Assembly (NCBI RefSeq): GCF_003334255.1
Contig: NZ_QOWU01000014.1
Length of the DNA stretch: 64,000 nucleotides
Source of the DNA: Escherichia coli
Lineage (GTDB): Bacteria; Pseudomonadota; Gammaproteobacteria; Enterobacterales; Enterobacteriaceae
Direction: 5' to 3' (one strand)
The notes under the pieces are model-generated. The model was not told the origin of the DNA and made no database searches. It saw only the letters and a program-made list of their open reading frames with translations. Both the position numbers and the translations under genes were made by a program. Below are positions 2 to 64,000 of this stretch, one piece after another. How positions within the stretch are numbered: position 1 is the stretch's first letter; each line of letters begins with the position of its first letter.

Positions 2-670
2 TTCAATATCCTGGCGGTGTGCGTACGCGGTGGGGCGATGATGTATTACGTCACATGGATTTTGGGCACGCCGGAAGTGTTTGTCGCTTTTCTCACCACT
101 TATTGCGTGGGTAACCTGATTGGTTCCGCACTGGCAAAACCTCTGACCGACTGGAAATGTAAAGTCACTATCTTCTGGTGGACGAACGCCCTGCTGGCAG
201 TGATTAGCCTCGCGATGTTCTTTGTTCCCATGCAGGCCAGCATCACTATGTTTGTCTTCATCTTCGTGATTGGTGTGTTGCATCAACTGGTGACACCTAT
301 CCAGTGGGTAATGATGTCCGATACCGTCGACTACGGCGAGTGGTGCAATGGTAAACGCCTGACCGGGATCAGTTTTGCTGGCACGCTGTTTGTGCTCAAA
401 CTGGGGTTGGCCTTCGGCGGCGCTCTTATCGGCTGGATGCTGGCTTATGGCGGATATGATGCGGCAGAAAAAGCGCAGAACAGCGCCACGATTAGCATCA
501 TTATTGCGCTATTCACGATTGTTCCGGCGATCTGTTATTTGCTGAGCGCGATTATCGCTAAACGCTACTACTCACTCACGACGCACAATCTGAAAACCGT
601 TATGGAACAGCTGGCTCAGGGTAAACGCCGTTGCCAGCAACAATTCACCTCTCAAGAAGTGCAGAACTAA
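2..670 (+). CDS. yicJ: GPH-family sugar:cation symporter YicJ, C-terminal part (5' end lies outside window)
   Basis: ORF track 17..670 is an in-frame open tail reaching the window edge; hydrophobic transporter-like sequence; directly upstream of yicI as in E. coli. Confidence 0.8.
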   Translation, partial: FNILAVCVRGGAMMYYVTWILGTPEVFVAFLTTYCVGNLIGSALAKPLTDWKCKVTIFWWTNALLAVISLAMFFVPMQASITMFVFIFVIGVLHQLVTPIQWVMMSDTVDYGEWCNGKRLTGISFAGTLFVLKLGLAFGGALIGWMLAYGGYDAAEKAQNSATISIIIALFTIVPAICYLLSAIIAKRYYSLTTHNLKTVMEQLAQGKRRCQQQFTSQEVQN

Positions 671-679
671 GGAACGGCA

Positions 680-2998
680 ATGAAAATTAGCGATGGAAAC
701 TGGTTGATTCAACCTGGCCTCAATTTGATTCACCCGCTTCAGGTGTTCGAGGTTGAACAGCAGGATAATGAAATGGTGGTCTATGCTGCCCCCCGTGATG
801 TGCGTGAACGTACCTGGCAGCTTGATACGCCTTTATTTACGTTGCGCTTTTTCTCCCCACAGGAAGGTATTGTCGGTGTGCGGATTGAGCATTTTCAGGG
901 GGCGCTGAATAACGGTCCTCATTATCCGCTCAATATTTTGCAGGACGTGAAGGTCACAATCGAAAACACAGAACGTTATGCTGAGTTTAAAAGTGGCAAC
1001 TTAAGCGCGCGTGTCAGCAAAGGTGAGTTCTGGTCACTGGATTTTCTGCGCAACGGCGAACGTATTACCGGTAGTCAGGTGAAAAATAATGGCTACGTGC
1101 AGGACACGAATAATCAACGCAATTATATGTTTGAGCGGCTTGATCTTGGCGTTGGCGAAACAGTTTACGGTCTGGGAGAGCGCTTTACTGCCCTGGTGCG
1201 CAATGGCCAGACGGTAGAGACCTGGAACCGGGACGGCGGCACAAGTACTGAACAGGCGTATAAAAATATCCCGTTCTACATGACTAACCGTGGTTATGGG
1301 GTACTGGTCAATCATCCCCAGTGTGTCTCTTTTGAAGTGGGATCGGAGAAAGTCTCCAAAGTGCAGTTCAGCGTTGAGAGTGAATATCTCGAATACTTTG
1401 TTATCGACGGCCCGACGCCGAAAGCGGTACTTGATCGTTATACCCGCTTTACTGGTCGTCCGGCGCTGCCGCCCGCGTGGTCCTTCGGCCTGTGGCTAAC
1501 CACTTCATTTACCACCAACTACGACGAAGCGACGGTAAACAGCTTTATCGATGGTATGGCGGAACGCAATCTGCCGCTGCATGTTTTCCACTTTGACTGT
1601 TTCTGGATGAAAGCCTTCCAGTGGTGCGATTTTGAGTGGGACCCGCTGACTTTCCCTGACCCGGAAGGGATGATCCGCCGCCTGAAAGCGAAAGGACTGA
1701 AAATCTGCGTCTGGATTAACCCCTATATCGGTCAAAAATCCCCCGTCTTTAAAGAGTTACAAGAGAAAGGCTATTTACTCAAACGCCCGGACGGTTCGCT
1801 ATGGCAGTGGGATAAATGGCAGCCAGGTCTGGCGATTTATGACTTTACCAATCCGGATGCCTGCAAATGGTACGCCGACAAACTGAAAGGTCTGGTCGCG
1901 ATGGGCGTTGATTGCTTTAAGACCGACTTTGGCGAACGTATCCCAACTGATGTTCAGTGGTTTGACGGTTCCGATCCGCAGAAAATGCATAACCATTATG
2001 CGTACATCTACAACGAACTGGTGTGGAACGTGCTCAAGGACACCGTTGGTGAGGAAGAAGCTGTCTTGTTTGCCCGCTCGGCCTCCGTCGGTGCGCAGAA
2101 ATTCCCGGTACACTGGGGTGGCGATTGTTACGCTAACTACGAATCAATGGCGGAAAGCCTGCGCGGTGGTTTGTCTATTGGCCTTTCAGGTTTTGGCTTC
2201 TGGAGCCACGATATCGGCGGCTTTGAAAATACCGCTCCGGCGCACGTTTACAAACGCTGGTGCGCGTTTGGTTTGCTCTCCAGCCATAGCCGTTTACACG
2301 GTAGCAAATCTTATCGTGTGCCGTGGGCCTACGATGATGAGTCCTGTGATGTGGTGCGCTTCTTCACGCAACTGAAATGCCGCATGATGCCGTATCTGTA
2401 TCGTGAAGCTGCGCGTGCGAACGCGCGGGGTACGCCGATGATGCGGGCCATGATGATGGAGTTCCCGGACGATCCGGCTTGTGATTACCTTGACCGTCAA
2501 TACATGTTAGGCGACAACGTGATGGTTGCGCCGGTGTTCACTGAAGCGGGCGATGTGCAGTTCTACCTGCCGGAAGGTCGCTGGACACACCTGTGGCACA
2601 ACGATGAACTCGACGGTAGTCGCTGGCATAAACAGCAGCACGGCTTCCTGAGTCTGCCCGTTTATGTGCGTGATAACACTCTACTGGCGCTGGGCAACAA
2701 CGATCAACGTCCCGATTACGTGTGGCACGAAGGCACGGCATTCCACCTCTTTAATCTGCAAGACGGGCATGAAGCCGTCTGTGAAGTGCCCGCTGCTGAC
2801 GGATCGGTGATCTTTACTTTAAAAGCAGCACGTACTGGCAACACGATTACTGTGACTGGTGCGGGCGAGGCGAAGAACTGGACACTGTGCCTGCGCAATG
2901 TTGTGAAAGTAAATGGTCTGCAAGACGGTTCGCAGGCTGAAAGTGAGCAGGGGCTGGTGGTGAAGCCTCAAGGGAATGCGCTGACAATTACGTTGTAA
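680..2998 (+). CDS. yicI: alpha-xylosidase (GH31)
   Basis: 772 aa ORF; length and sequence match E. coli YicI; 10 nt after yicJ stop (operon). Confidence 0.93.
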
Positions 2999-3012
2999 TC
3001 TATTGATGGAAT

Positions 3013-3039
3013 GCCGGGTACGTCTGAGTCGTACCCGGC
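3013..3039. terminator. bidirectional hairpin terminator between convergent yicI and yicH
   Basis: Inverted repeat gccgggtacgtctgagtcgtacccggc. Confidence 0.6.
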
Positions 3040-3050
3040 GAGATTGATGT

Positions 3051-4760
3051 TTACCGCACCGGCTCCGTCGATGTAACTTCACCGCTGGAAACGATGCCAG
3101 CATTCATGGTTTGAGTCACTTGCTGCTTTGCGGCGTTCACGGCATGCAATTGCCCGCTAACCGTAGGTTTCAACGGGACATTGGCCTGAATATCGCCACT
3201 GGCGGTAAGCTGAATATTGCCGTCGCCAGTCAACGGTAATTCAGGCCATCCCCACTGTTGCAAAATATTCACCGGCACACCGCGTCCATTCAGGCTGATA
3301 TGTGTCTGACGTTGTGGCGTTTGTGAAACACTGGCGGTGGCTTCCAGAATGCCTTTTTCAGTAAATGCACTCAGTTCGCTGATATTCACCGTGCTGCTGT
3401 TGGCGGTCAGCGCCAGCGACGGGCGACGAACATCAACACGATTGAATGTCGCGGCGGCGGCATTCAGATTCGCCGAGCCACTCCAGACGCCCCATTTATG
3501 ATCGGTAACCAGCGTCAGGTTGGCACCGTAACCATCGAGCGCGGTGAGCTGCCACGGGAAGTCAGGGTCGATATCAATGATCAGATTGCGGCTGGCGCTA
3601 AATCTCTTCAGTTGCAGGCTGTTTAACCAACCGGGTGTCGTTTCCATCCACAACTGTTGCCAGTTTTTCGGCAAGGTATATTCCAGCCCGGCAATTGCCG
3701 CATCATCAAGGATCAACGTTTTCCCGTCACGCAGCCAGTTCCCTGACGTTCTGACCATACCCCCTTCCCAGCGGCTGGTGAACTGGCGCAGCGCTACGCC
3801 CTGCGGGGAAAATTCCGTGTTTATAATCGGGTCAAATAAATGCAGCGAACCATAAATGAACTCGCTAGCGTTCATCGACAGTTTGCCTTCCTGTGTCTGC
3901 CAGTCATCTTTACTGAAGGTCATGTTGCGCAAGCTGAGATCGAGGTCGGTCACCGCCCAGTCCGGACCTTGCAAACGAGCATCGATCACTTCCAGGCGAC
4001 CAATCTGCAACGACGGGACAGAGCGTAATGGCGCAAAGAAGTCGGTTAGCGATTTTTCGCTTTGTAGACGTATATCCGCCATGCGCAGGTTTTCCACTTG
4101 CCAGCTGCCGTCGGCGTTACGCTGCGCGTTTCCGGTTAATGTCCCGCGGGCGATGTCGGCACCCAGGTTAGTCAGCGTAACGCGATCGTTATCAATACTG
4201 CCTTCAATCAGTACATTGGTGGCAGGAACATCATTGAGCGAAAGCGATCCGGCACTAAACTGAATCTGCGCCTTCGTACCCAGCACTTTACCGGCTTTTG
4301 GTGACCACGGAACTACGCCGCCATTTACCCGCTGCGCGCTCAGTTTCCATTCGCTATTCGGGCTATTAAACGCCATATCACGCAGTTGCAGACGATCGGC
4401 TTTGAACGGTAGCGGCGCGGTCTGGTCGGTGAGATTCAGCGTCCCGTTTTCCAGCAGGATGGTATCGACATGGCGTGGTTCGGTCAGTTGCCGACTGCTT
4501 AGCGCAATGTCGACACTTTTGGCCACCAGGGTCGCGGGCTGGCCATCACGACCAAACGTGACGTTCTCCAGCACGATATGAGATGGCGCGGAAAAACGGT
4601 GATCCATCGCCCCGAAGGCCAGATGATAGTCGCTATTCTCGGAAACCCATGCGCTGATATGTTCTGCTCCCCAGCGGGTTTGCAGAAGAAAATAGAGGCC
4701 AGCGATCGCCACTAACAGAGCGATGAGAATGTAGAGAAGCAGCTTCCCAATAAATTTCAT
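3051..4760 (-). CDS. yicH: AsmA-family outer membrane biogenesis protein YicH
   Basis: ORF 3051..4784 with N-terminal signal-anchor (MKFIGKLLLYILIALLVAIAGLYF); start trimmed to Met9. Confidence 0.85.
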   Translation of the reverse strand: MKFIGKLLLYILIALLVAIAGLYFLLQTRWGAEHISAWVSENSDYHLAFGAMDHRFSAPSHIVLENVTFGRDGQPATLVAKSVDIALSSRQLTEPRHVDTILLENGTLNLTDQTAPLPFKADRLQLRDMAFNSPNSEWKLSAQRVNGGVVPWSPKAGKVLGTKAQIQFSAGSLSLNDVPATNVLIEGSIDNDRVTLTNLGADIARGTLTGNAQRNADGSWQVENLRMADIRLQSEKSLTDFFAPLRSVPSLQIGRLEVIDARLQGPDWAVTDLDLSLRNMTFSKDDWQTQEGKLSMNASEFIYGSLHLFDPIINTEFSPQGVALRQFTSRWEGGMVRTSGNWLRDGKTLILDDAAIAGLEYTLPKNWQQLWMETTPGWLNSLQLKRFSASRNLIIDIDPDFPWQLTALDGYGANLTLVTDHKWGVWSGSANLNAAAATFNRVDVRRPSLALTANSSTVNISELSAFTEKGILEATASVSQTPQRQTHISLNGRGVPVNILQQWGWPELPLTGDGNIQLTASGDIQANVPLKPTVSGQLHAVNAAKQQVTQTMNAGIVSSGEVTSTEPVR

Positions 4761-4880
4761 GGTCTTCCATCCCGTGAAATGCACATAAGGGAGTTATGCA
4801 CGATTTACGCGCAATCCTCAAGGCGGGAATGGTTAAAGAGGTGAGACTGCGGCGGTAATTATCTTACCGCCGCCAGTGAA

Positions 4881-6272
4881 TTACTGTTTTTCTGGTGGGA
4901 AAATCAGATTCAGCACGATGGCAGTAATACCGCCCGCGGCGATCCCGGAGGAGAGCAGGTTTTTCAGCCATTCAGGGGCAAACTGCAAAATCAGCGGCTG
5001 CTGAGACACGCCCAGACCAACCGCCAGCGACAGCGCGATAATCAGAATCGCCCGACGGTTCAGCGGCTCACGAGAAACGATACGCACACCGGAGGCGGCG
5101 ATGGTGCCAAACATTACAAGCGTTGCGCCGCCCAGAACCGGTTCTGGAATGTGTTGTACAAAACCGCTCACTGCCGGGAACAGACCCAGCACGATCAACA
5201 TCAGCGCGACGACAAAACCGACATAGCGGCTGGCAACACCAGTCAACTGGATCACTCCGTTGTTTTGCCCGAAGCAGGAGTTCGGGAAGGTGTTAAACAC
5301 CGCCGAAACAAACGAGTTCAGGCCGTTTGCCAGCACGCCGCCTTTCAGGCGTTTCATGTACAGCGGACCGGACACTGGCTGTTCGGAAACGTCAGAGGTC
5401 GCCGTGATATCGCCAATGGTTTCCAGCGAAGTGATCATAAAGACCAGCATCAGCGGCAGCAGCAGACTCCATTCAATGCCAAGACCGTAATAGAGCGGCG
5501 TTGGCACCATAATCAGTTCTTGCGTCATAGGTTCGTTGCTTTCTGGCAACATGCCCATAAACCACGCCAGCGCATATCCGGCCGCCATCGCAATTACCAG
5601 TGAGGCCACGCGTAAGTAAGGGTTACGTTGACGGTTAAGCAGGATAATTAAGGCTAAGACCACGCCTGCCAGCAGCAGATTTTTCGGTGCGCCGAAGGTG
5701 TTATCGCTCATGGCTGCGTAACCGCCGCCAATGGACGTTAACCCAACCTGAATTAGCGACAGGCCGATAATCATCACCACAACGCCAGAAACCAGCGGCG
5801 TAATAATGCGGCGCGCCAGATGCAGAACGCGGGAGATCACCATCTCGGTGCAACTTGCCAGCATCAACGTGCCGAACAAAGCCGCCATCATGGTAGGAAC
5901 ATCAGCACCACCGGTTTTCAGCGCGGTACCGCCCATAATCAGCGGGGCAACAAAGTTGAAGCTGGTGCCCTGAATAGACAACAGCCCGGAGCCAACCGGA
6001 CCCCAGGCCTTAATTTGAATAATCGATGCCACACCGGAGGCAAACAGCGACATACTAATAATGTGTTGCGTGTCTTGTGCCGGTAAACCCAGCGCCTGGC
6101 AGATTAATAGCGCTGGCGTGATCACCGCAACGAACATCGCCAGCAGATGCTGACAGGCGGCAAACAGGGTTTGAGGAAGCGGCGGACGATCTTCAAGACG
6201 GTAAATCAGTTCGCTGTTTTGAGTCTGCGCAACCGGTTGCGCATTTTCTGACTCGAGGGTGGAAACAGACAT
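4881..6272 (-). CDS. xanP: xanthine permease (NCS2 family)
   Basis: 466 aa ORF, polytopic membrane protein; synteny yicH-xanP-gltS; start trimmed to Met4. Confidence 0.88.
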
Positions 6273-6551
6273 CGAAAACAATCCCGTGGTAGCAAAGCGG
6301 GCATTTTAGCTGACCGAAAGAGAAAAGCAAACGTTTGCCACATCCTCATCTAAATATTTAAATGAGATAAATGCACTTTTTTATATAACTTTTGGTATTT
6401 TTCTGCTTAAAATCCATGCCATTTGTTCATTAACAGCTGAGAATTTGACCCAGGAAAGCATAACTCGATACCCGTCATAGTTCATGAAGTTGCCACTGCG
6501 CGATGAAGTATGACGAGTATGAAAGAGTGATGCGGATACAAAGGAGTAACT

Positions 6552-7757
6552 ATGTTTCATCTCGATACTTTAGCAACGCTTGTTGCCGCAACGCTGACGT
6601 TGCTGCTCGGGCGTAAGTTGGTCCATTCCGTCTCCTTTTTGAAGAAATACACCATACCGGAACCTGTTGCGGGTGGTTTGTTGGTGGCGCTGGCGCTACT
6701 AGTACTGAAAAAAAGCATGGGCTGGGAAGTCAACTTTGATATGTCCCTGCGCGATCCGTTAATGCTGGCTTTCTTCGCCACCATTGGCCTGAACGCCAAC
6801 ATTGCCAGTTTGCGTGCCGGTGGGCGTGTGGTTGGCATCTTCTTGATTGTGGTTGTTGGTCTGTTGGTGATGCAAAATGCCATTGGCATTGGTATGGCTA
6901 GCTTGTTAGGGCTTGATCCGCTGATGGGGCTGTTGGCCGGTTCTATTACGCTTTCCGGCGGTCACGGTACGGGCGCTGCGTGGAGTAAATTGTTCATTGA
7001 ACGTTATGGCTTCACCAATGCGACGGAAGTGGCGATGGCCTGTGCAACGTTCGGTCTGGTGCTGGGCGGCTTGATTGGCGGTCCGGTGGCGCGCTATCTG
7101 GTGAAACACTCCACCACGCCGAACGGTATTCCGGATGACCAGGAAGTCCCGACGGCGTTTGAAAAGCCGGATGTGGGACGCATGATCACCTCGTTGGTGC
7201 TGATTGAAACTATCGCGCTGATTGCTATCTGCCTGACGGTGGGGAAAATTGTTGCGCAACTTTTGGCTGGCACTGCTTTTGAACTGCCGACCTTCGTCTG
7301 TGTACTGTTTGTTGGCGTGATTCTGAGCAACGGTCTGTCAATAATGGGCTTTTACCGCGTCTTTGAGCGTGCGGTATCCGTGCTGGGTAACGTAAGCTTG
7401 TCGTTGTTCCTGGCGATGGCGTTGATGGGGCTGAAACTGTGGGAGCTGGCTTCGCTGGCGCTGCCGATGCTGGCGATTCTGGTGGTACAGACCATCTTCA
7501 TGGCGTTGTATGCCATCTTCGTTACCTGGCGCATGATGGGCAAAAACTACGATGCGGCAGTGCTGGCTGCGGGTCACTGTGGTTTTGGCCTCGGTGCAAC
7601 GCCAACGGCAATCGCCAACATGCAGGCGATCACTGAACGCTTTGGCCCGTCGCACATGGCGTTTTTGGTGGTGCCGATGGTCGGTGCGTTCTTTATCGAT
7701 ATCGTCAATGCGCTGGTAATTAAGTTGTATTTGATGTTGCCGATTTTTGCCGGTTAA
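6552..7757 (+). CDS. gltS: sodium/glutamate symporter
   Basis: 401 aa ORF; sequence and length match GltS. Confidence 0.93.
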   Translation: MFHLDTLATLVAATLTLLLGRKLVHSVSFLKKYTIPEPVAGGLLVALALLVLKKSMGWEVNFDMSLRDPLMLAFFATIGLNANIASLRAGGRVVGIFLIVVVGLLVMQNAIGIGMASLLGLDPLMGLLAGSITLSGGHGTGAAWSKLFIERYGFTNATEVAMACATFGLVLGGLIGGPVARYLVKHSTTPNGIPDDQEVPTAFEKPDVGRMITSLVLIETIALIAICLTVGKIVAQLLAGTAFELPTFVCVLFVGVILSNGLSIMGFYRVFERAVSVLGNVSLSLFLAMALMGLKLWELASLALPMLAILVVQTIFMALYAIFVTWRMMGKNYDAAVLAAGHCGFGLGATPTAIANMQAITERFGPSHMAFLVVPMVGAFFIDIVNALVIKLYLMLPIFAG

Positions 7758-7765
7758 CCGATGAA

Positions 7766-7787
7766 GCGGCGGTAGAAGTGCCGCCGC
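7766..7787. terminator. hairpin terminator between convergent gltS and recG
   Basis: Inverted repeat gcggcggtagaagtgccgccgc just after gltS stop. Confidence 0.55.
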
Positions 7788-7925
7788 AACAAAGACAAAT
7801 GCCTGATACGCTTCGCTTATCAAGCCTGCGTATTGATTCATAATTTATTGAATTTGTAGGGTGATGAATCGCATCCGGCAGGAAGGTAGGGTAACCTGAA
7901 ATGGCGGTCTTCTCACTGCCGCCTT

Positions 7926-10007
7926 TTACGCATTCGAGTAACGTTCCGTCTCCGGCATCCAGCGTTCTATCAGGGCTTTTGCCTGTTGTGGGTAACGTTC
8001 GTGAATATGGCGTGCCAGGCGCTGAACTTCCGGGATCATCGCCTGATCGCGCAGTAAATCCGCCACTTTAAATTCAGCATTACCCGTCTGACGCGTGCCT
8101 AACAATTCGCCAGGGCCGCGAATCTCCAGATCTTTTTGCGCAATCACAAAACCGTCGTTACTGTCGCGCAGCACTTGCAGGCGAATTTGCGCCGTTTTAG
8201 AAAGCGGCGTTTTGTAGAGCAGCACGCAGTGAGAAGCCACCGCGCCACGACCTACGCGCCCGCGCAGCTGGTGTAACTGCGCCAGACCCAGACGCTCCGG
8301 GTTTTCGATAATCATCAGACTGGCGTTAGGCACATCAACGCCGACTTCAATAACGGTTGTGGCAACCAGCAGGTGTAGCTCACCTTGTTTAAACGACGCC
8401 ATCACCGCCTGTTTCTCGGCAGGTTTCATCCGCCCGTGTACCAGGCCAACGTTCAACTCTGGTAGCGCCAGTTTCAACTCTTCCCAGGTAGCTTCCGCCG
8501 CCTGCGCTTCCAGCAATTCCGACTCTTCAATCAACGTACAAACCCAGTATGCCTGACGACCTTCAGTTATGCAGGCGTGGTGCACGCGGTCAATGATGTC
8601 GGTACGGCGGGTATCAGGAATAGCGACCGTAGTCACTGGCGTGCGGCCTGGCGGCAGCTCATCTATCACCGAGGTATCGAGATCGGCATACGCAGTCATT
8701 GCCAGCGTGCGGGGGATCGGCGTGGCGGTCATGATCAACTGATGCGGATGGAAGCCCTGCTGCTGGCCTTTCTCCCACAATGCCAGACGCTGATGCACGC
8801 CAAAACGATGCTGTTCGTCGATAATCACCAGCGCCAGGCCGTTAAACTGCACCTGTTCCTGGAAGATGGCGTGTGTACCGACAATCATCTGCACCTGACC
8901 GCTGGCGATGGCTTCCTGCTGTGCCAGCCGTGCTTTACCTTTCTGCTTACCGGCGAGCCAGCCCACTTCGATACCGAGCGGTGCAAACCAGTTGCGGAAG
9001 TTATTGGCGTGCTGCTCGGCGAGTAATTCGGTTGGTGCCATCAATGCTACCTGTTTGCCGTGGGCAATCGCACGCAACGCGGCGAGGGCGGCGACCAGCG
9101 TTTTACCGGAACCTACATCGCCCTGCACCAGACGCATCATCGGCACATCCAGCGCCATATCGCGCTCGATCTCCGCCACTACGCGTGCCTGTGCGCCCGT
9201 TGGCTTGAACGGTAAGGCGGCGAGGAGTTTATTTTTCAGCGTGTCATTGGCGCTCAGCGGCTGGGCATGAAAACGCTGTGCTCCGGCACGTAAGGCTAAC
9301 ATGCTGAGGTTGTGCGCCAGCAGTTCTTCCAGAATCAGACGACGTTGCGCCGGATGCTGCCCGGTTTCCAGATCGCTAAGCTGTAGCGTCGGTGGCGGGC
9401 GGTGCAAAGTGCGCAACGCTTCCGGTAGCGTCATCATTCCTTGTGACAGTTCCGGCGGCAGGAGTTCTTCAATGGCGCAGGTGTCGAGCAGATCCAGCGC
9501 CTGGTCGGTTAATTTACGCAGCGTGGCCTGCTTTACGCCTTCCGTTGTTGGATAAACCGGCGTGAGCGTTTCCTGTAATTCTGGCGTGCTGAGATCGCCC
9601 TGCACGCGGTATTCCGGGTGGATCATCTCCGCACCATATTTACCGCGCTTTGCTTCGCCATAAGCCAGTACACGGCGGCCCGCCGCCAGGCTATTTTTCA
9701 TTGCCGCGCTGAAATTGAAAAAGCGCATGGTGAGGATGCCGGAACCGTCGCTGATCTGGCAGGTCATCATCCGCCGACCGCCGAAGGAGATATTGCAGTT
9801 CAGCACTTCGCCTTCCACCGTGGCATAAACGCCCGGCAGTAGTTCTCCGATGGGGTAGAGATGGGTGCGATCTTCGTAGCGCAGGGGAAGGTGTAAGAGT
9901 AGATCCTGCACGGTATGCAGGTTGATTTTCGCCAGTTTGTTACTAAGTGCTGCGCCAACGCCCGTTAGGGAACTGAGTGGGACAGCATCTAACAGGCGAC
10001 CTTTCAT
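7926..10007 (-). CDS. recG: ATP-dependent DNA helicase RecG
   Basis: ORF 7926..10040; helicase motifs (GDVGSGKT, DEQHRFG); start trimmed to Met12 giving 693 aa. Confidence 0.95.
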   Translation of the reverse strand: MKGRLLDAVPLSSLTGVGAALSNKLAKINLHTVQDLLLHLPLRYEDRTHLYPIGELLPGVYATVEGEVLNCNISFGGRRMMTCQISDGSGILTMRFFNFSAAMKNSLAAGRRVLAYGEAKRGKYGAEMIHPEYRVQGDLSTPELQETLTPVYPTTEGVKQATLRKLTDQALDLLDTCAIEELLPPELSQGMMTLPEALRTLHRPPPTLQLSDLETGQHPAQRRLILEELLAHNLSMLALRAGAQRFHAQPLSANDTLKNKLLAALPFKPTGAQARVVAEIERDMALDVPMMRLVQGDVGSGKTLVAALAALRAIAHGKQVALMAPTELLAEQHANNFRNWFAPLGIEVGWLAGKQKGKARLAQQEAIASGQVQMIVGTHAIFQEQVQFNGLALVIIDEQHRFGVHQRLALWEKGQQQGFHPHQLIMTATPIPRTLAMTAYADLDTSVIDELPPGRTPVTTVAIPDTRRTDIIDRVHHACITEGRQAYWVCTLIEESELLEAQAAEATWEELKLALPELNVGLVHGRMKPAEKQAVMASFKQGELHLLVATTVIEVGVDVPNASLMIIENPERLGLAQLHQLRGRVGRGAVASHCVLLYKTPLSKTAQIRLQVLRDSNDGFVIAQKDLEIRGPGELLGTRQTGNAEFKVADLLRDQAMIPEVQRLARHIHERYPQQAKALIERWMPETERYSNA

Positions 10008-62004: not shown

Positions 62005-62463
62005 GGGGGAGGGGGGAGATTATGGAACTTTGCTCCTTGTAAGGACTAATTATTTTTGCATATTACTTCATTAGCTGCGATGATTTTTCTTTAATATTCA
62101 TTATGTTAATAAGTTCTGGATGAGTGTGCTCTCATTGGATTTTTTATCCGTCTTGTTCTGCCGCAGGATGAGACTATACATCGTCGAGATCGCAATGATG
62201 ATATGAGTTGTTCCTCCTGCGACGGCTCTAATCAAAAAAGAGCAGGAGTGCTTTTCCATCTATTGCGATGATGGCTTTATTATCTGAAGGATGACAGTCA
62301 CATTTAAAAAATATTTAATCTATAGATCACAATGTAGGGTCATGGAATATATGTATACAACTATTTTCTTCTTCACTTTTAATTATCGTATTCATTATAA
62401 AACTAAGTTAAAAAAACTCCTGGAGAGTGAGTTATTAATATATTTTTAAATAAAATTAAGTTA

Positions 62464-62984
62464 TCATTCATCGATGCACTTTATAGAATCATCAATGGCC
62501 ATAATAGTACTATTAACTCTCAATTTTATATTTTTATCATCACTACAAATATTAACTGAATTTATATCAATGATTTTTTTATTCTTATCTTTTATTTTAT
62601 TTACTGTTTCAATGCAATCAGCGGCAAGTTGGAGTGGATTTAGATTTTTCAGATATGGTCTTATGATCTTTCCCTTACTTAATAAATAGCATGTATAGGA
62701 TTCGGAAAGTCCAGCATCTATTTTGTACCTCATTATATTAGATAAGGATGTGAGAAATTCCTTGTTATCATTCGCAGCCATATATGCCAGTCCGAGTTCA
62801 GCCTCTGCGGCCTTACAGGCAAAATAGCTTAGTGAACACGCTTTTCGTCCCTCTTTAGTACTGGCTGATATTAGTGCCCATAATATTGCTTTGTCTGCCA
62901 AATCTAACTCTCTCTGAAATTGTCTTGCAGTAACTGCACTCGCAGAAATAGAGAAAAAAATACAATTGTTAATAATCTTGCCAT
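62464..62984 (-). CDS. Sel1-like repeat protein, putative Rhs-toxin immunity protein; in-frame ORF covers 62464..62901 only, upstream ATG (62982..62984) with signal peptide is out of frame across a T7 tract
   Basis: ORF track 62464..62901 starts at TTG; ATG 5 nt after the upstream CT ORF stop encodes MARLLTIVFF.. then frame is lost in homopolymer at 62954..62960; low GC. Confidence 0.45.
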
Positions 62985-62989
62985 ATTTT

Positions 62990-63600
62990 TTAGTCCGTAA
63001 CTGTTAATGTGCTATCTGGCTCTGAAAATATTAACTCATTTAATTTTTGCATGTCATTAGATAAACCAGTTATACAACCCTCGGAACAGAATCGAGGTCC
63101 TAAAGACGGACCAAAAGCGTTTAAACAACTATGTATTGAAAATCCATTGCGATTATAAGTTCCTGTATTAACTGACGGTACTAATCGTATGCCGTCAGGT
63201 TTTCTATTGCTTGCTCCCGGGTCATTAACATTCCAACTCCATAGGCCTTGAGGTATTGGCCATCTATTTATAAATGTGTACAACGGGGATTATTTTTACA
63301 TTGCATATTATTACCAGAAGCGACTGGAATACTAAGCACATCATAAAAATTATCATCACATGGTATATCTGAAACACACGAAAGCATACCTAAAGTTATG
63401 CTGTATAAACAGGTGGCTAATCCCAAGGGGATCGATTCCAGAAATCGGGTTCAACGGATACTGATAAAAATTCCACCTACCTTCCAGCCCAATCGGAGCC
63501 TGAGTGTTATACCGCCCCTGCTGCGGTTAATGTTACCGATAATAGTTATAGTACAGCCCTGATTCATCATCATACTACTGCTGCGGCAGTCTGATGAACT
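62990..63600 (-). pseudogene. degenerate orphan Rhs fragment: Rhs core C-terminal remnant (..[45 protein letters not shown]) plus C-terminal toxin-tip coding sequence split over three frames
   Basis: Manual translation of minus strand; ORF track shows only the 97 aa tail 62990..63283; stops and frame changes interrupt the core motif; no intact start. Confidence 0.55.
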
Positions 63601-63607
63601 ATTGCTT

Positions 63608-63982
63608 TTACGGATTCTCCTTATTCTTCCTTCTATCCATTCGCTTTAGCTTTTTGAGCTCTTGAAGTTTGCTCTTTGCATCAATATTACCGTTATTTAC
63701 AGCGAATTCCATCCAATAAATAGCTCTATTCAAATTATAATATTCTGATAATGTTGGATTTGTATCTGATAAAAAGACCCCATAATTAAACTGCGCTGTA
63801 ACATTCCCCTGAGATGCTGATCTTTCCAAGAATCGCAATTGTTTGTAAATGTTATTTTTAGTAAAGCAGTAATATTGATATAGTCGAAATGATGCCTCTG
63901 AATCACCATGTTGTGATTTATACTTCAGTTTCATCAACTTTTCTTCACTTAAATCATAGGTCATTGCTGTAGACCCCATCAT
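63608..63982 (-). CDS. Sel1-like repeat protein, putative immunity protein of the upstream Rhs toxin module
   Basis: 124 aa low-GC ORF with Sel1/TPR-like repeats (AQFNYGVFL..., AIYWMEFAVNNG); directly upstream of the Rhs core remnant. Confidence 0.5.
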   Translation of the reverse strand: MMGSTAMTYDLSEEKLMKLKYKSQHGDSEASFRLYQYYCFTKNNIYKQLRFLERSASQGNVTAQFNYGVFLSDTNPTLSEYYNLNRAIYWMEFAVNNGNIDAKSKLQELKKLKRMDRRKNKENP

Positions 63983-64000
63983 ACTTTCGTTTTGTTTTAT

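What the first reader, a model, noticed from the sequence alone, without database searches (positions are those of the whole stretch)
62990..63600. Degenerate orphan Rhs core-end and toxin-tip fragment on the minus strand
Manual minus-strand translation gives ..YDDESGLYYNYYR(stop)H(stop)[35 protein letters not shown], which looks like the conserved end of an Rhs core (YYDP..GRY..QDPIGL..NxYQY..NP....DPxGL) just before the variable toxin tip. The motif is broken by two stops and a frame change at DPLG; the downstream toxin-tip sequence continues in another frame, then returns to the first frame as the 97 aa ORF 62990..63283. This is a decayed displaced toxin cassette of the kind found downstream of main rhs genes; the intact rhsA would lie beyond 64000 on the minus strand. 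K-12 carries Rhs-family pseudogene fragments in the equivalent position.
Basis: partly seen in the sequence, partly recalled or inferred. Interest (0 to 1): 0.55.

Follow-up and report, generated by a model that had tools for sequence, protein, structure and literature searches.

The report
Dead orphan Rhs toxin tip (yibS/yibW)
This is the already-annotated, broken leftover of a displaced Rhs toxin cassette (E. coli K-12 pseudogenes yibS/yibW with the immunity gene yibV); the dead toxin was a cell-wall-cutting Tlde1-type enzyme, so the finding is correct but ordinary.

Summary
The observation and its interpretation both hold. On the minus strand, 63607-62990 encodes the last ~60 codons of an Rhs core, ending in the DPLG motif. 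It matches TIGR03696 at 47.4 bits (cut-off 32.5). A ~143-aa toxin tip follows.

The 611-bp segment is 100% identical to K-12 MG1655, where it is annotated as pseudogenes yibS/yibW. About 3,480 of 5,426 complete E. coli genomes carry the same decayed allele, and about 200 carry an open-frame allele at this position.

New here:
- The next gene (62984-62464) is its Imm57 immunity gene, frameshifted in a T-run.

The same domain caps full-length Rhs proteins elsewhere. Neighbouring genomes show stacked displaced tips, with this one the most distal. It is a known kind of feature, already annotated and non-functional, so interest is low.

The parts
63422..63607 (-). Remnant of the C-terminal end of an Rhs core (about 60 codons, ending in the [10 protein letters not shown] demarcation motif). 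It has no start codon and no YD-repeat shell. Four in-frame stops lie at 63601-63599, 63577-63575, 63535-63533 and 63529-63527. A +1 insertion sits near 63431, inside the DPLG codons. This is K-12 yibS.
   Evidence: TIGR03696 scores 47.4 bits (cut-off 32.5), and NF041261 matches positions 1210-1261 of 1261. The remnant is colinear with the intact core end in L005. PGAP annotates 63574-63356 as 'RHS repeat-associated core domain-containing protein, internal stop, missing N-terminus'.
63271..63420 (-). First part of the toxin tip, read one frame away from the core: LATCLYS...CKNNPRCTHL. It carries a 9-bp in-frame deletion of one TGGTAATAA repeat copy after 63317 (SGNNGNNM becomes SGNNM). It ends in a TAA stop (63270-63268) where intact alleles have CAA. 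This is part of K-12 yibW.
62990..63268 (-). Second part of the toxin tip, back in the core's frame after a -1 deletion at 63271: NRWPIPQG...HSC...SEGCITG...TLTVTD, then the stop. It holds the YkuD/Tlde1-type catalytic His (63133-63131) and Cys (63076-63074). The nearly invariant Gly of NRGPIP has become Trp.
62464..62984 (-). Cognate immunity gene of the Imm57 family (K-12 yibV region). A 1-base deletion in a T-run near 62961 (T8 to T7) breaks the frame inside the signal-peptide-like N-terminus. The longest remaining ORF (62464-62901, 145 aa, TTG start) lacks that N-terminus.
   Evidence: The repaired translation matches Pfam Imm57 PF15596 at E 1.9e-47. PGAP calls it 'Imm57 family immunity protein, frameshifted'. 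Intact 173-aa versions exist in L004, L005 and L008.
63608..64000 (-). yibG (Sel1-repeat protein), cut by the window end. It is the gene paired with the next-upstream displaced tip (yibJ), and it marks the upstream boundary of this module.
   Evidence: Annotation in WG5 and K-12. In O157:H7 EC4115 yibG directly follows the main rhs gene.

Best explanation

Inferred ancestral mechanism:
- The tip was the C-terminal cargo of a full-length Rhs protein and was released at the DPxGL junction.
- It was delivered, most likely by a type VI secretion system, into a neighbour's periplasm.
- There it acted as a Tlde1-type L,D-carboxypeptidase/transpeptidase on peptidoglycan stem peptides.
- The periplasmic Imm57 protein encoded next to it protected the producer.

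A new tip then recombined onto the main gene. That left this cassette downstream with only about 60 codons of core, no start codon and no delivery shell.

Shown here:
- In the K-12-type lineage the toxin acquired four stops, two frameshifts, a 9-bp deletion and a Gly-to-Trp change.
- The immunity gene then lost its frame in a T-run.
- Nothing translatable links the pieces, so no toxin can be made.

Inferred rather than shown: the enzymatic activity, the delivery route and the order of events.
For: Rhs core end:
- One search gives TIGR03696 at 47.4 bits (cut-off 32.5) and an RHS_core match to the last 52 model positions.
- One search shows that a profile including this region hits the C-terminal core of solved Rhs, Tc and teneurin proteins (E down to 1.5e-12).

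Lesions.

Identity with the K-12 yibS/yibW pseudogenes: (100.0% over 611 bp).

Population:
- One search finds 3,481 genomes with the decayed type and about 204 in the intact-type lineage.
- Open-frame alleles occur at the same position in L003 and L004.
- Strain B2 (L005) reads through from a longer core fragment into the tip with a single stop.

Toxin identity:
- Full-length relatives are 82-83% identical in E. coli and 57-60% in Ralstonia and Paraburkholderia, with PF10908 precomputed.
- 16 of 20 relatives match Pfam Tlde1_dom, best E 1.6e-9.
- The AF2 model has pLDDT 85.1 and pTM 0.81.

Rhs cargo: the domain is always C-terminal among the 150 listed of 367 hits. Six hosts of 1,378-1,570 aa are true Rhs proteins whose Rhs_assc_core ends within a few residues of where the tip begins.

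Immunity:
- Imm57 matches at E 1.9e-47.
- Zhang et al. 2012 (PMC3482391) pair Tox-LD-peptidase on RHS proteins with Imm16/Imm57.
- Rhs-DUF2778 fusions are reported in bioRxiv 10.1101/2020.02.18.954545.

Stacked displaced tips:
- The O157:H7 main rhs gene carries the K-12 'yibJ' tip and is followed by yibG.
- O103:H2 has a further RhsB-type tip in front.

Timing: dN/dS is 0.22-0.25 against intact alleles, so most divergence predates inactivation.
Against: - The window copy alone matches Pfam Tlde1_dom only weakly (E 0.014). A sequence profile of the tip finds no PDB entry. The toxin assignment therefore rests on relatives and on a predicted structure of an intact allele that is about 85% identical, not on the window sequence itself.
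- The motif differs from the canonical (S/T)HGC by having Glu for the second His (SEGC).
- The main rhs gene and any secretion system lie outside the window.
- No expression data were available, so translation of the 97-aa or 145-aa ORFs cannot be excluded.
- The coding signal is still well preserved, so 'fossil' describes the lesions, not extensive erosion.
Confidence: 0.93

Rival explanations
1. This is a silent but still usable cassette. The core-end homology lets the module recombine onto the main rhs gene and re-arm the cell with a Tlde1 tip, as proposed for orphan rhs-CT/rhsI modules.
For: Recombination between core fragments at this locus clearly happens:
- Strain B2 (L005) has the yibJ core fragment joined directly to this tip, with the yibJ tip and yibG absent.
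- The O157:H7 main gene carries the K-12 orphan yibJ tip.

Poole et al. 2011 (PMC3150448) describe orphan modules as expanding the toxin repertoire.
Against: - In the window allele the lesions lie inside the tip itself (+1, -1, a stop, a 9-bp deletion, G to W), so recombination in the core would transfer a dead tip.
- Two of the four core stops lie only 35-37 codons upstream of DPLG, leaving very little clean homology.
- No E. coli hit sampled shows this tip on a full-length rhs gene.
Confidence: 0.04
2. One of the surviving small ORFs is expressed and has a function of its own. Candidates are the 97-aa ORF 62990-63283, which carries the His/Cys motif, and the 145-aa signal-less Imm57 ORF 62464-62901.
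For: - The 97-aa ORF is deposited as a protein in public sets (P0004, 480 member sequences).
- K-12 annotates yibV as a protein.
- The catalytic codons are intact.
Against: - The 97-aa ORF starts at a TTG and lacks the first ~50 residues of the domain, which form three of the predicted beta-strands. It also has the Gly-to-Trp change and no export signal.
- NCBIfam finds nothing in it.
- The pseudogene is no better conserved than adjacent intergenic DNA.
- The Imm57 ORF lacks the hydrophobic N-terminus needed to reach the periplasm.
Confidence: 0.03
3. The stops and frameshifts are sequencing or assembly errors in an intact gene.
For: Two of the frame changes lie in short homopolymer runs (C-run near 63431, A-run at 63271).
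Against: - The same 611 bp occurs at >=99% identity in 3,475 records from independently finished genomes, including K-12 MG1655, BL21 and O157:H7.
- The four stop codons are base substitutions.
- Open-frame alleles differ at many other sites as well.
Confidence: 0.005

Closest known systems
E. coli K-12 pseudogenes yibS (b4650) and yibW (b4651), with yibV (b4615, 'PF15596 family protein')
   Same: The sequence is 100% identical over window 62990-63607 and sits in the same position between yibG and yibH.
   Different: In the window the Imm57 gene has only the T-run frameshift. K-12 has an additional extra A near window 62580 that truncates yibV. Over the 1.6 kb searched, the window's best matches are E. 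coli C and WG5 at 99.9%.
Orphan rhs-CT/rhsI modules and C-terminal displacement (Poole et al. 2011, PMC3150448; Jackson et al. 2009, cited there)
   Same: It has a short stretch of core-end coding sequence up to DPxGL, a variable tip and a small immunity gene. [quoted passage not shown]
   Different: Here both the toxin and the immunity gene are inactivated. Functional orphans keep open frames.
Tlde1a (Salmonella Typhimurium STM14_0336; PDB 7UMA), a T6SS L,D-carboxypeptidase/transpeptidase effector
   Different: - It is only 19% identical to Tlde1a.
- It is an Rhs C-terminal tip rather than a stand-alone effector.
- The His-to-Cys spacing is 18 residues, as in classical YkuD enzymes, against 9 in Tlde1a (H121, C131).
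- The residue before Gly-Cys is Glu, not His.
- The immunity protein is Imm57, not DUF2195 (Tldi1).
Tox-LD-peptidase polymorphic toxins with Imm57 (Zhang et al. 2012, PMC3482391) and Rhs-DUF2778 fusions (bioRxiv 10.1101/2020.02.18.954545)
   Same: It has the architecture those studies describe: RHS repeats, an L,D-peptidase tip and an Imm57 neighbour.
   Different: The window copy is a broken orphan, not a full-length fusion.

Membership tests
Rhs C-terminal core end (orphan rhs-CT) | Match to the RHS repeat-associated core domain (TIGR03696) above its curated cut-off | tested here: met
   47.4 bits against a cut-off of 32.5, E 2e-12, model positions 24-76 of 76.
Rhs C-terminal core end (orphan rhs-CT) | PxxxxDPxGL demarcation motif at the core/tip junction | tested here: met
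   [10 protein letters not shown] lies at 63451-63422. The final Leu is read only after the +1 frameshift. Intact alleles read NPITDIDPLGL.
Rhs C-terminal core end (orphan rhs-CT) | Orphan status: no YD-repeat shell, no start codon, downstream of a full-length rhs gene | tested here: met
   Core homology starts right after the yibG stop, leaving about 60 codons. The main rhs gene lies upstream in genomes 99.9-100% identical over this stretch. The main gene itself is outside the window.
Rhs C-terminal core end (orphan rhs-CT) | Open reading frame through core end and tip (a functional orphan) | tested here: not met
   The region holds four stops in the core end, a fifth stop inside the tip, and two frameshifts.
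Tlde1 / DUF2778 (PF10908) L,D-peptidase effectors | Significant match to Pfam PF10908 | tested here: inconclusive
   The repaired window copy gives E 0.014. Of 20 aligned relatives, 16 match at E<=1e-3, best 1.6e-9. The family is met for the relatives and only marginally for this copy alone.
Tlde1 / DUF2778 (PF10908) L,D-peptidase effectors | L,D-transpeptidase (YkuD) fold | tested here: met
Tlde1 / DUF2778 (PF10908) L,D-peptidase effectors | Catalytic motif H-X(14-17)-(S/T)HGC-h with conserved His and Cys | tested here: met
   The window reads H(63133-63131)-x15-S-E-G-C(63076-63074)-I. His, Ser, Gly and Cys are invariant across 16 relatives. One deviation: Glu (Ala or Gly in a few relatives) replaces the second His. 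The motif is taken from PMC9638812.
Tlde1 / DUF2778 (PF10908) L,D-peptidase effectors | L,D-carboxypeptidase / D-amino-acid exchange activity on peptidoglycan, and periplasmic toxicity | not testable with these tools
   This needs expression of a repaired tip and muropeptide analysis.
Tlde1 / DUF2778 (PF10908) L,D-peptidase effectors | Delivery by a type VI secretion system | not tested
   No secretion genes lie near the locus in the regions inspected. The rest of the genome is unavailable.
Imm57 immunity proteins (PF15596) | Significant Pfam match, and position immediately downstream of an L,D-peptidase toxin tip | tested here: met
   E 1.9e-47 over model positions 2-100 of 100. The gene starts 6 bp after the toxin stop. 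The pairing is described in PMC3482391.
Imm57 immunity proteins (PF15596) | Intact reading frame with an export signal | tested here: not met
   A T8-to-T7 deletion near 62961 breaks the frame within the hydrophobic N-terminus. About 3,313 genomes share T7 and 69 have T8.

The most novel reading that the evidence does not exclude
The immunity half of the module may not be fully dead. Its only lesion in this window is a 1-base slip in a T-run, and 69 genomes have the in-frame T8 form. At least one of them (strain 99-3165) carries an identical dead toxin. The run might therefore toggle by slippage, giving switchable orphan immunity against Rhs-Tlde1 attackers in a lineage that no longer makes the toxin.
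Probability: 0.06. Interest if true: 0.35.

Novelty: already known. Interest (0 to 1): 0.1.

Why it matters
It matters little in itself. The locus is annotated in the K-12 reference as pseudogenes yibS/yibW plus yibV, and the architecture (Rhs with an L,D-peptidase tip and Imm57) was described in 2012 and 2020.

The modest value added is threefold:
- a precise lesion map;
- the assignment of the dead K-12 tip to the Tlde1/YkuD fold;
- a clear example, from the compared genomes, of stacked C-terminal displacement in which the most distal module is the most decayed and the toxin was lost before its immunity gene.

Tried and rejected
- **Unusual conservation of the pseudogene.** O157:H7 is 99.8% identical to the window over it, which suggested selection. 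This is rejected. Flanking genes and intergenic DNA are equally similar (99.2-100%) in the same strains.
- **Sequence search of solved structures with the tip profile.** It found nothing even at E<=10. The mixed core-plus-tip profile hit only Rhs cores. A fold comparison was needed instead.
- **NCBIfam on the 97-aa ORF and on Imm57.** No meaningful hit.
- **Literature search for yibS/yibW/yibV.** It returned almost only unrelated acronyms.
- **Sequencing-error explanation.** Rejected by identity across thousands of finished genomes.
- **dN/dS near 1 as a sign of long neutral decay.** Not found. The ratio is 0.22-0.25, so most divergence from the intact alleles predates inactivation.

Full report
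**Observation**

- Frame 0 reads ...[49 protein letters not shown].
- The neighbouring frame continues [50 protein letters not shown].
- Frame 0 then resumes as the 97-aa ORF 62990-63283.

The Rhs assignment is statistically solid.
- A stop-masked, frame-repaired translation matches TIGR03696 (RHS repeat-associated core domain) at 47.4 bits against a curated cut-off of 32.5, covering model positions 24-76 of 76.
- It also matches the last 52 positions of the 1,261-position RHS_core model.
- A profile containing this region hits the C-terminal core of solved Rhs, Tc-toxin and teneurin structures.

**Identity with a known locus**

The 1.6-kb stretch occurs in 3,705 of 5,426 complete E. coli genomes.
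- Window 62990-63600 is 100.0% identical to K-12 MG1655 and BL21.
- In the K-12 reference the stretch is annotated as pseudogenes yibS (b4650) and yibW (b4651). They are followed by yibV ('PF15596 family protein') and the yibU pseudogene. The surrounding order is rhsA-yibA-yibJ-yibG-...-yibH-yibI-mtlA.
- PGAP annotates the same pieces in strain WG5 (99.9% identical) as an 'RHS repeat-associated core domain-containing protein' pseudogene with an internal stop. The next gene is a frameshifted 'Imm57 family immunity protein'.
This rests on synteny, not on the window itself.

**Lesion map**

I aligned the window allele to open-frame alleles at the same chromosomal position (L003, L004, L005).
- Core homology starts immediately after the yibG stop (63610-63608). 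The window reads KQ*FIRLPQQ*YDDESGLYYNYYR*H*PQQGRY, where strain B2 reads [33 protein letters not shown].
- The core remnant therefore holds four stops: 63601-63599, 63577-63575, 63535-63533 and 63529-63527.
- A +1 insertion near 63431 shifts the frame inside DPLG.
- A 9-bp deletion after 63317 removes one copy of a TGGTAATAA tandem repeat (SGNNGNNM becomes SGNNM).
- At 63271 a CAA-to-TAA change plus a 1-base deletion ends the shifted frame and returns reading to frame 0.
- The nearly invariant Gly of NRGPIP is Trp.

**What the tip is**

Full-length relatives exist.
- E. coli relatives are 82-83% identical.
- Ralstonia and Paraburkholderia Rhs fragments are 57-60% identical.
- Most carry a precomputed PF10908 (Tlde1 domain) hit.

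The window copy alone is only marginal against Pfam: Tlde1_dom E 0.014 and YkuD E 0.061. Of 20 aligned relatives, 16 match Tlde1_dom at E<=1e-3.

I built a 16-sequence alignment of the toxin domain, with an intact E. coli allele as first sequence.
- It gave a confident AlphaFold model (pLDDT 85.1, pTM 0.81).
- The Foldseek top 12 PDB hits are all YkuD-fold peptidoglycan enzymes, including DpaA, YkuD, Pgp2, Bd1075, Csd6 and Ldtfm.

The published motif H-X14-17-(S/T)HGC-h (PMC9638812) is present as H-x15-SEGCI. The His (63133-63131) and Cys (63076-63074) codons are intact. The second His is Glu throughout most of this subfamily.

An exhaustive profile search found 367 proteins.
- Among the 150 best listed, the domain sits at or near the C-terminal end.
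- Six hosts of 1,378-1,570 aa have YD repeats and an Rhs_assc_core domain that ends within a few residues of where the tip begins.
- So this is a genuine Rhs cargo domain.

**Immunity gene**

Six bases after the toxin stop, 62984-62464 encodes an Imm57 protein (PF15596, E 1.9e-47 after repair).
- Its frame is broken by a 1-base deletion in a T-run (T8 to T7, near 62961).
- The break lies inside a strongly hydrophobic N-terminus (MARLLTIVFFFSISASAVTA; Kyte-Doolittle 11-residue windows of 1.5-2.45). This looks like a Sec signal peptide, which is an inference.
- A periplasmic immunity protein fits a peptidoglycan-directed toxin.
- Zhang et al. 2012 list Tox-LD-peptidase with RHS repeats and Imm16/Imm57 as its immunity partners.
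- The Tlde1 (Tae5) preprint reports Rhs-DUF2778 fusions and cites that pairing.

**Population and history**

Of 3,685 genomes holding this tip, 3,481 have the K-12-type decayed allele. About 204 fall in the intact-type lineage: 137 at >=99%, 49 at 95-99% and 18 at 90-95% identity to the L004 open frame.

The locus shows stacked displacement.
- O103:H2 has an RhsB-type tip with yhhH on the main gene. Downstream follow yibA, the yibJ fragment, yibG, this pseudogene and Imm57.
- In O157:H7 the main gene itself carries the 'yibJ' tip and is followed directly by yibG.
- In strain B2 the yibJ core fragment is joined directly to this tip.
- The Tlde1/Imm57 module is always the most distal.

On timing:
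- dN/dS between the window tip and intact alleles is 0.22-0.25, with dS 0.26-0.28. The alleles therefore diverged mostly while functional, and the lesions came later.
- Strain 99-3165 has a toxin remnant identical to the window's but an in-frame (T8) Imm57.
- T8 occurs in 69 genomes against about 3,313 with T7.
- The toxin therefore died before the immunity gene, or the T-run can revert.

**Checks that came to nothing**

- The high identity of the pseudogene between phylogroups is matched by flanking genes and intergenic DNA, so there is no sign of special constraint.
- Sequence search of the PDB with the tip profile was empty.
- The gene-name literature search was uninformative.

**Mechanism**

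The ancestral function is inferred from established knowledge of Rhs and Tlde1 systems (PMC3150448, PMC9638812, 10.1101/2020.02.18.954545).
- The Rhs shell encloses the tip and releases it at the DPxGL junction.
- The tip is delivered into a neighbour's periplasm.
- There the L,D-peptidase trims or exchanges the fourth residue of peptidoglycan stem peptides and blocks cross-linking.
- Imm57 protects sibling cells.

The present state is shown directly: no start codon, no shell, five stops, two frameshifts and a frameshifted immunity gene. The module is inert.

**Verdict**

The feature is already known and annotated, so interest is low (0.1).

Noticed in passing
window 62101-62299 (minus strand), between the Imm57 gene and yibH: This is a short fragment of an ISAs1-family (H-repeat) transposase, equivalent to the K-12 pseudogene yibU. 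In strain 500010 (L004 5855-6991) a full ISAs1 transposase sits immediately upstream of the open-frame Tlde1 tip and replaces yibG.
   Followed up: partly
L006 (O157:H7 EC4115) 4078-8780; L007 (O103:H2) 1850-8780: In O157:H7 the main rhs gene is followed directly by yibG, so the tip that is an orphan (yibJ) in K-12 sits on the main gene there. O103:H2 has a further RhsB-type tip with yhhH stacked in front. This is a clean natural series of C-terminal displacement at one locus.
   Followed up: partly
L005 (strain B2) 6710-7620: A longer Rhs-core fragment (the yibJ core) reads straight into the Tlde1 tip, with a single stop near the end (E to stop in ...LIFS*PDSTL). The yibJ tip and yibG are absent. 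This looks like a deletion by recombination between the two core-end repeats.
   Followed up: partly
window ~62961 (T-run) and ~62580 (A-run) in the Imm57 gene: The T-run is T7 in about 3,313 genomes and T8 (in frame) in 69, including one with an identical dead toxin (L008). K-12 also has an extra A in the A-run, which the window lacks. It is unresolved whether T7/T8 reflects ancestry or slippage.
   Followed up: partly
window 63317 (9-bp deletion): The in-frame deletion removes one copy of a perfect 9-bp tandem repeat (TGGTAATAA x2 in intact alleles). It takes out the Gly of the near-invariant ASGNNG motif. This is probably a replication-slippage event.
   Followed up: no
toxin-domain alignment A2 (relatives of window 62990-63420): This Rhs-borne subfamily has SEGC (Glu) where Tlde1a and YkuD enzymes have (S/T)HGC. 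Its His-to-Cys spacing is that of classical YkuD enzymes rather than the shorter Tlde1a spacing. It also has several invariant cysteines (C4, C15, C44, C50, C102, C115), which suggests disulfides. The consequence for activity is unknown.
   Followed up: no
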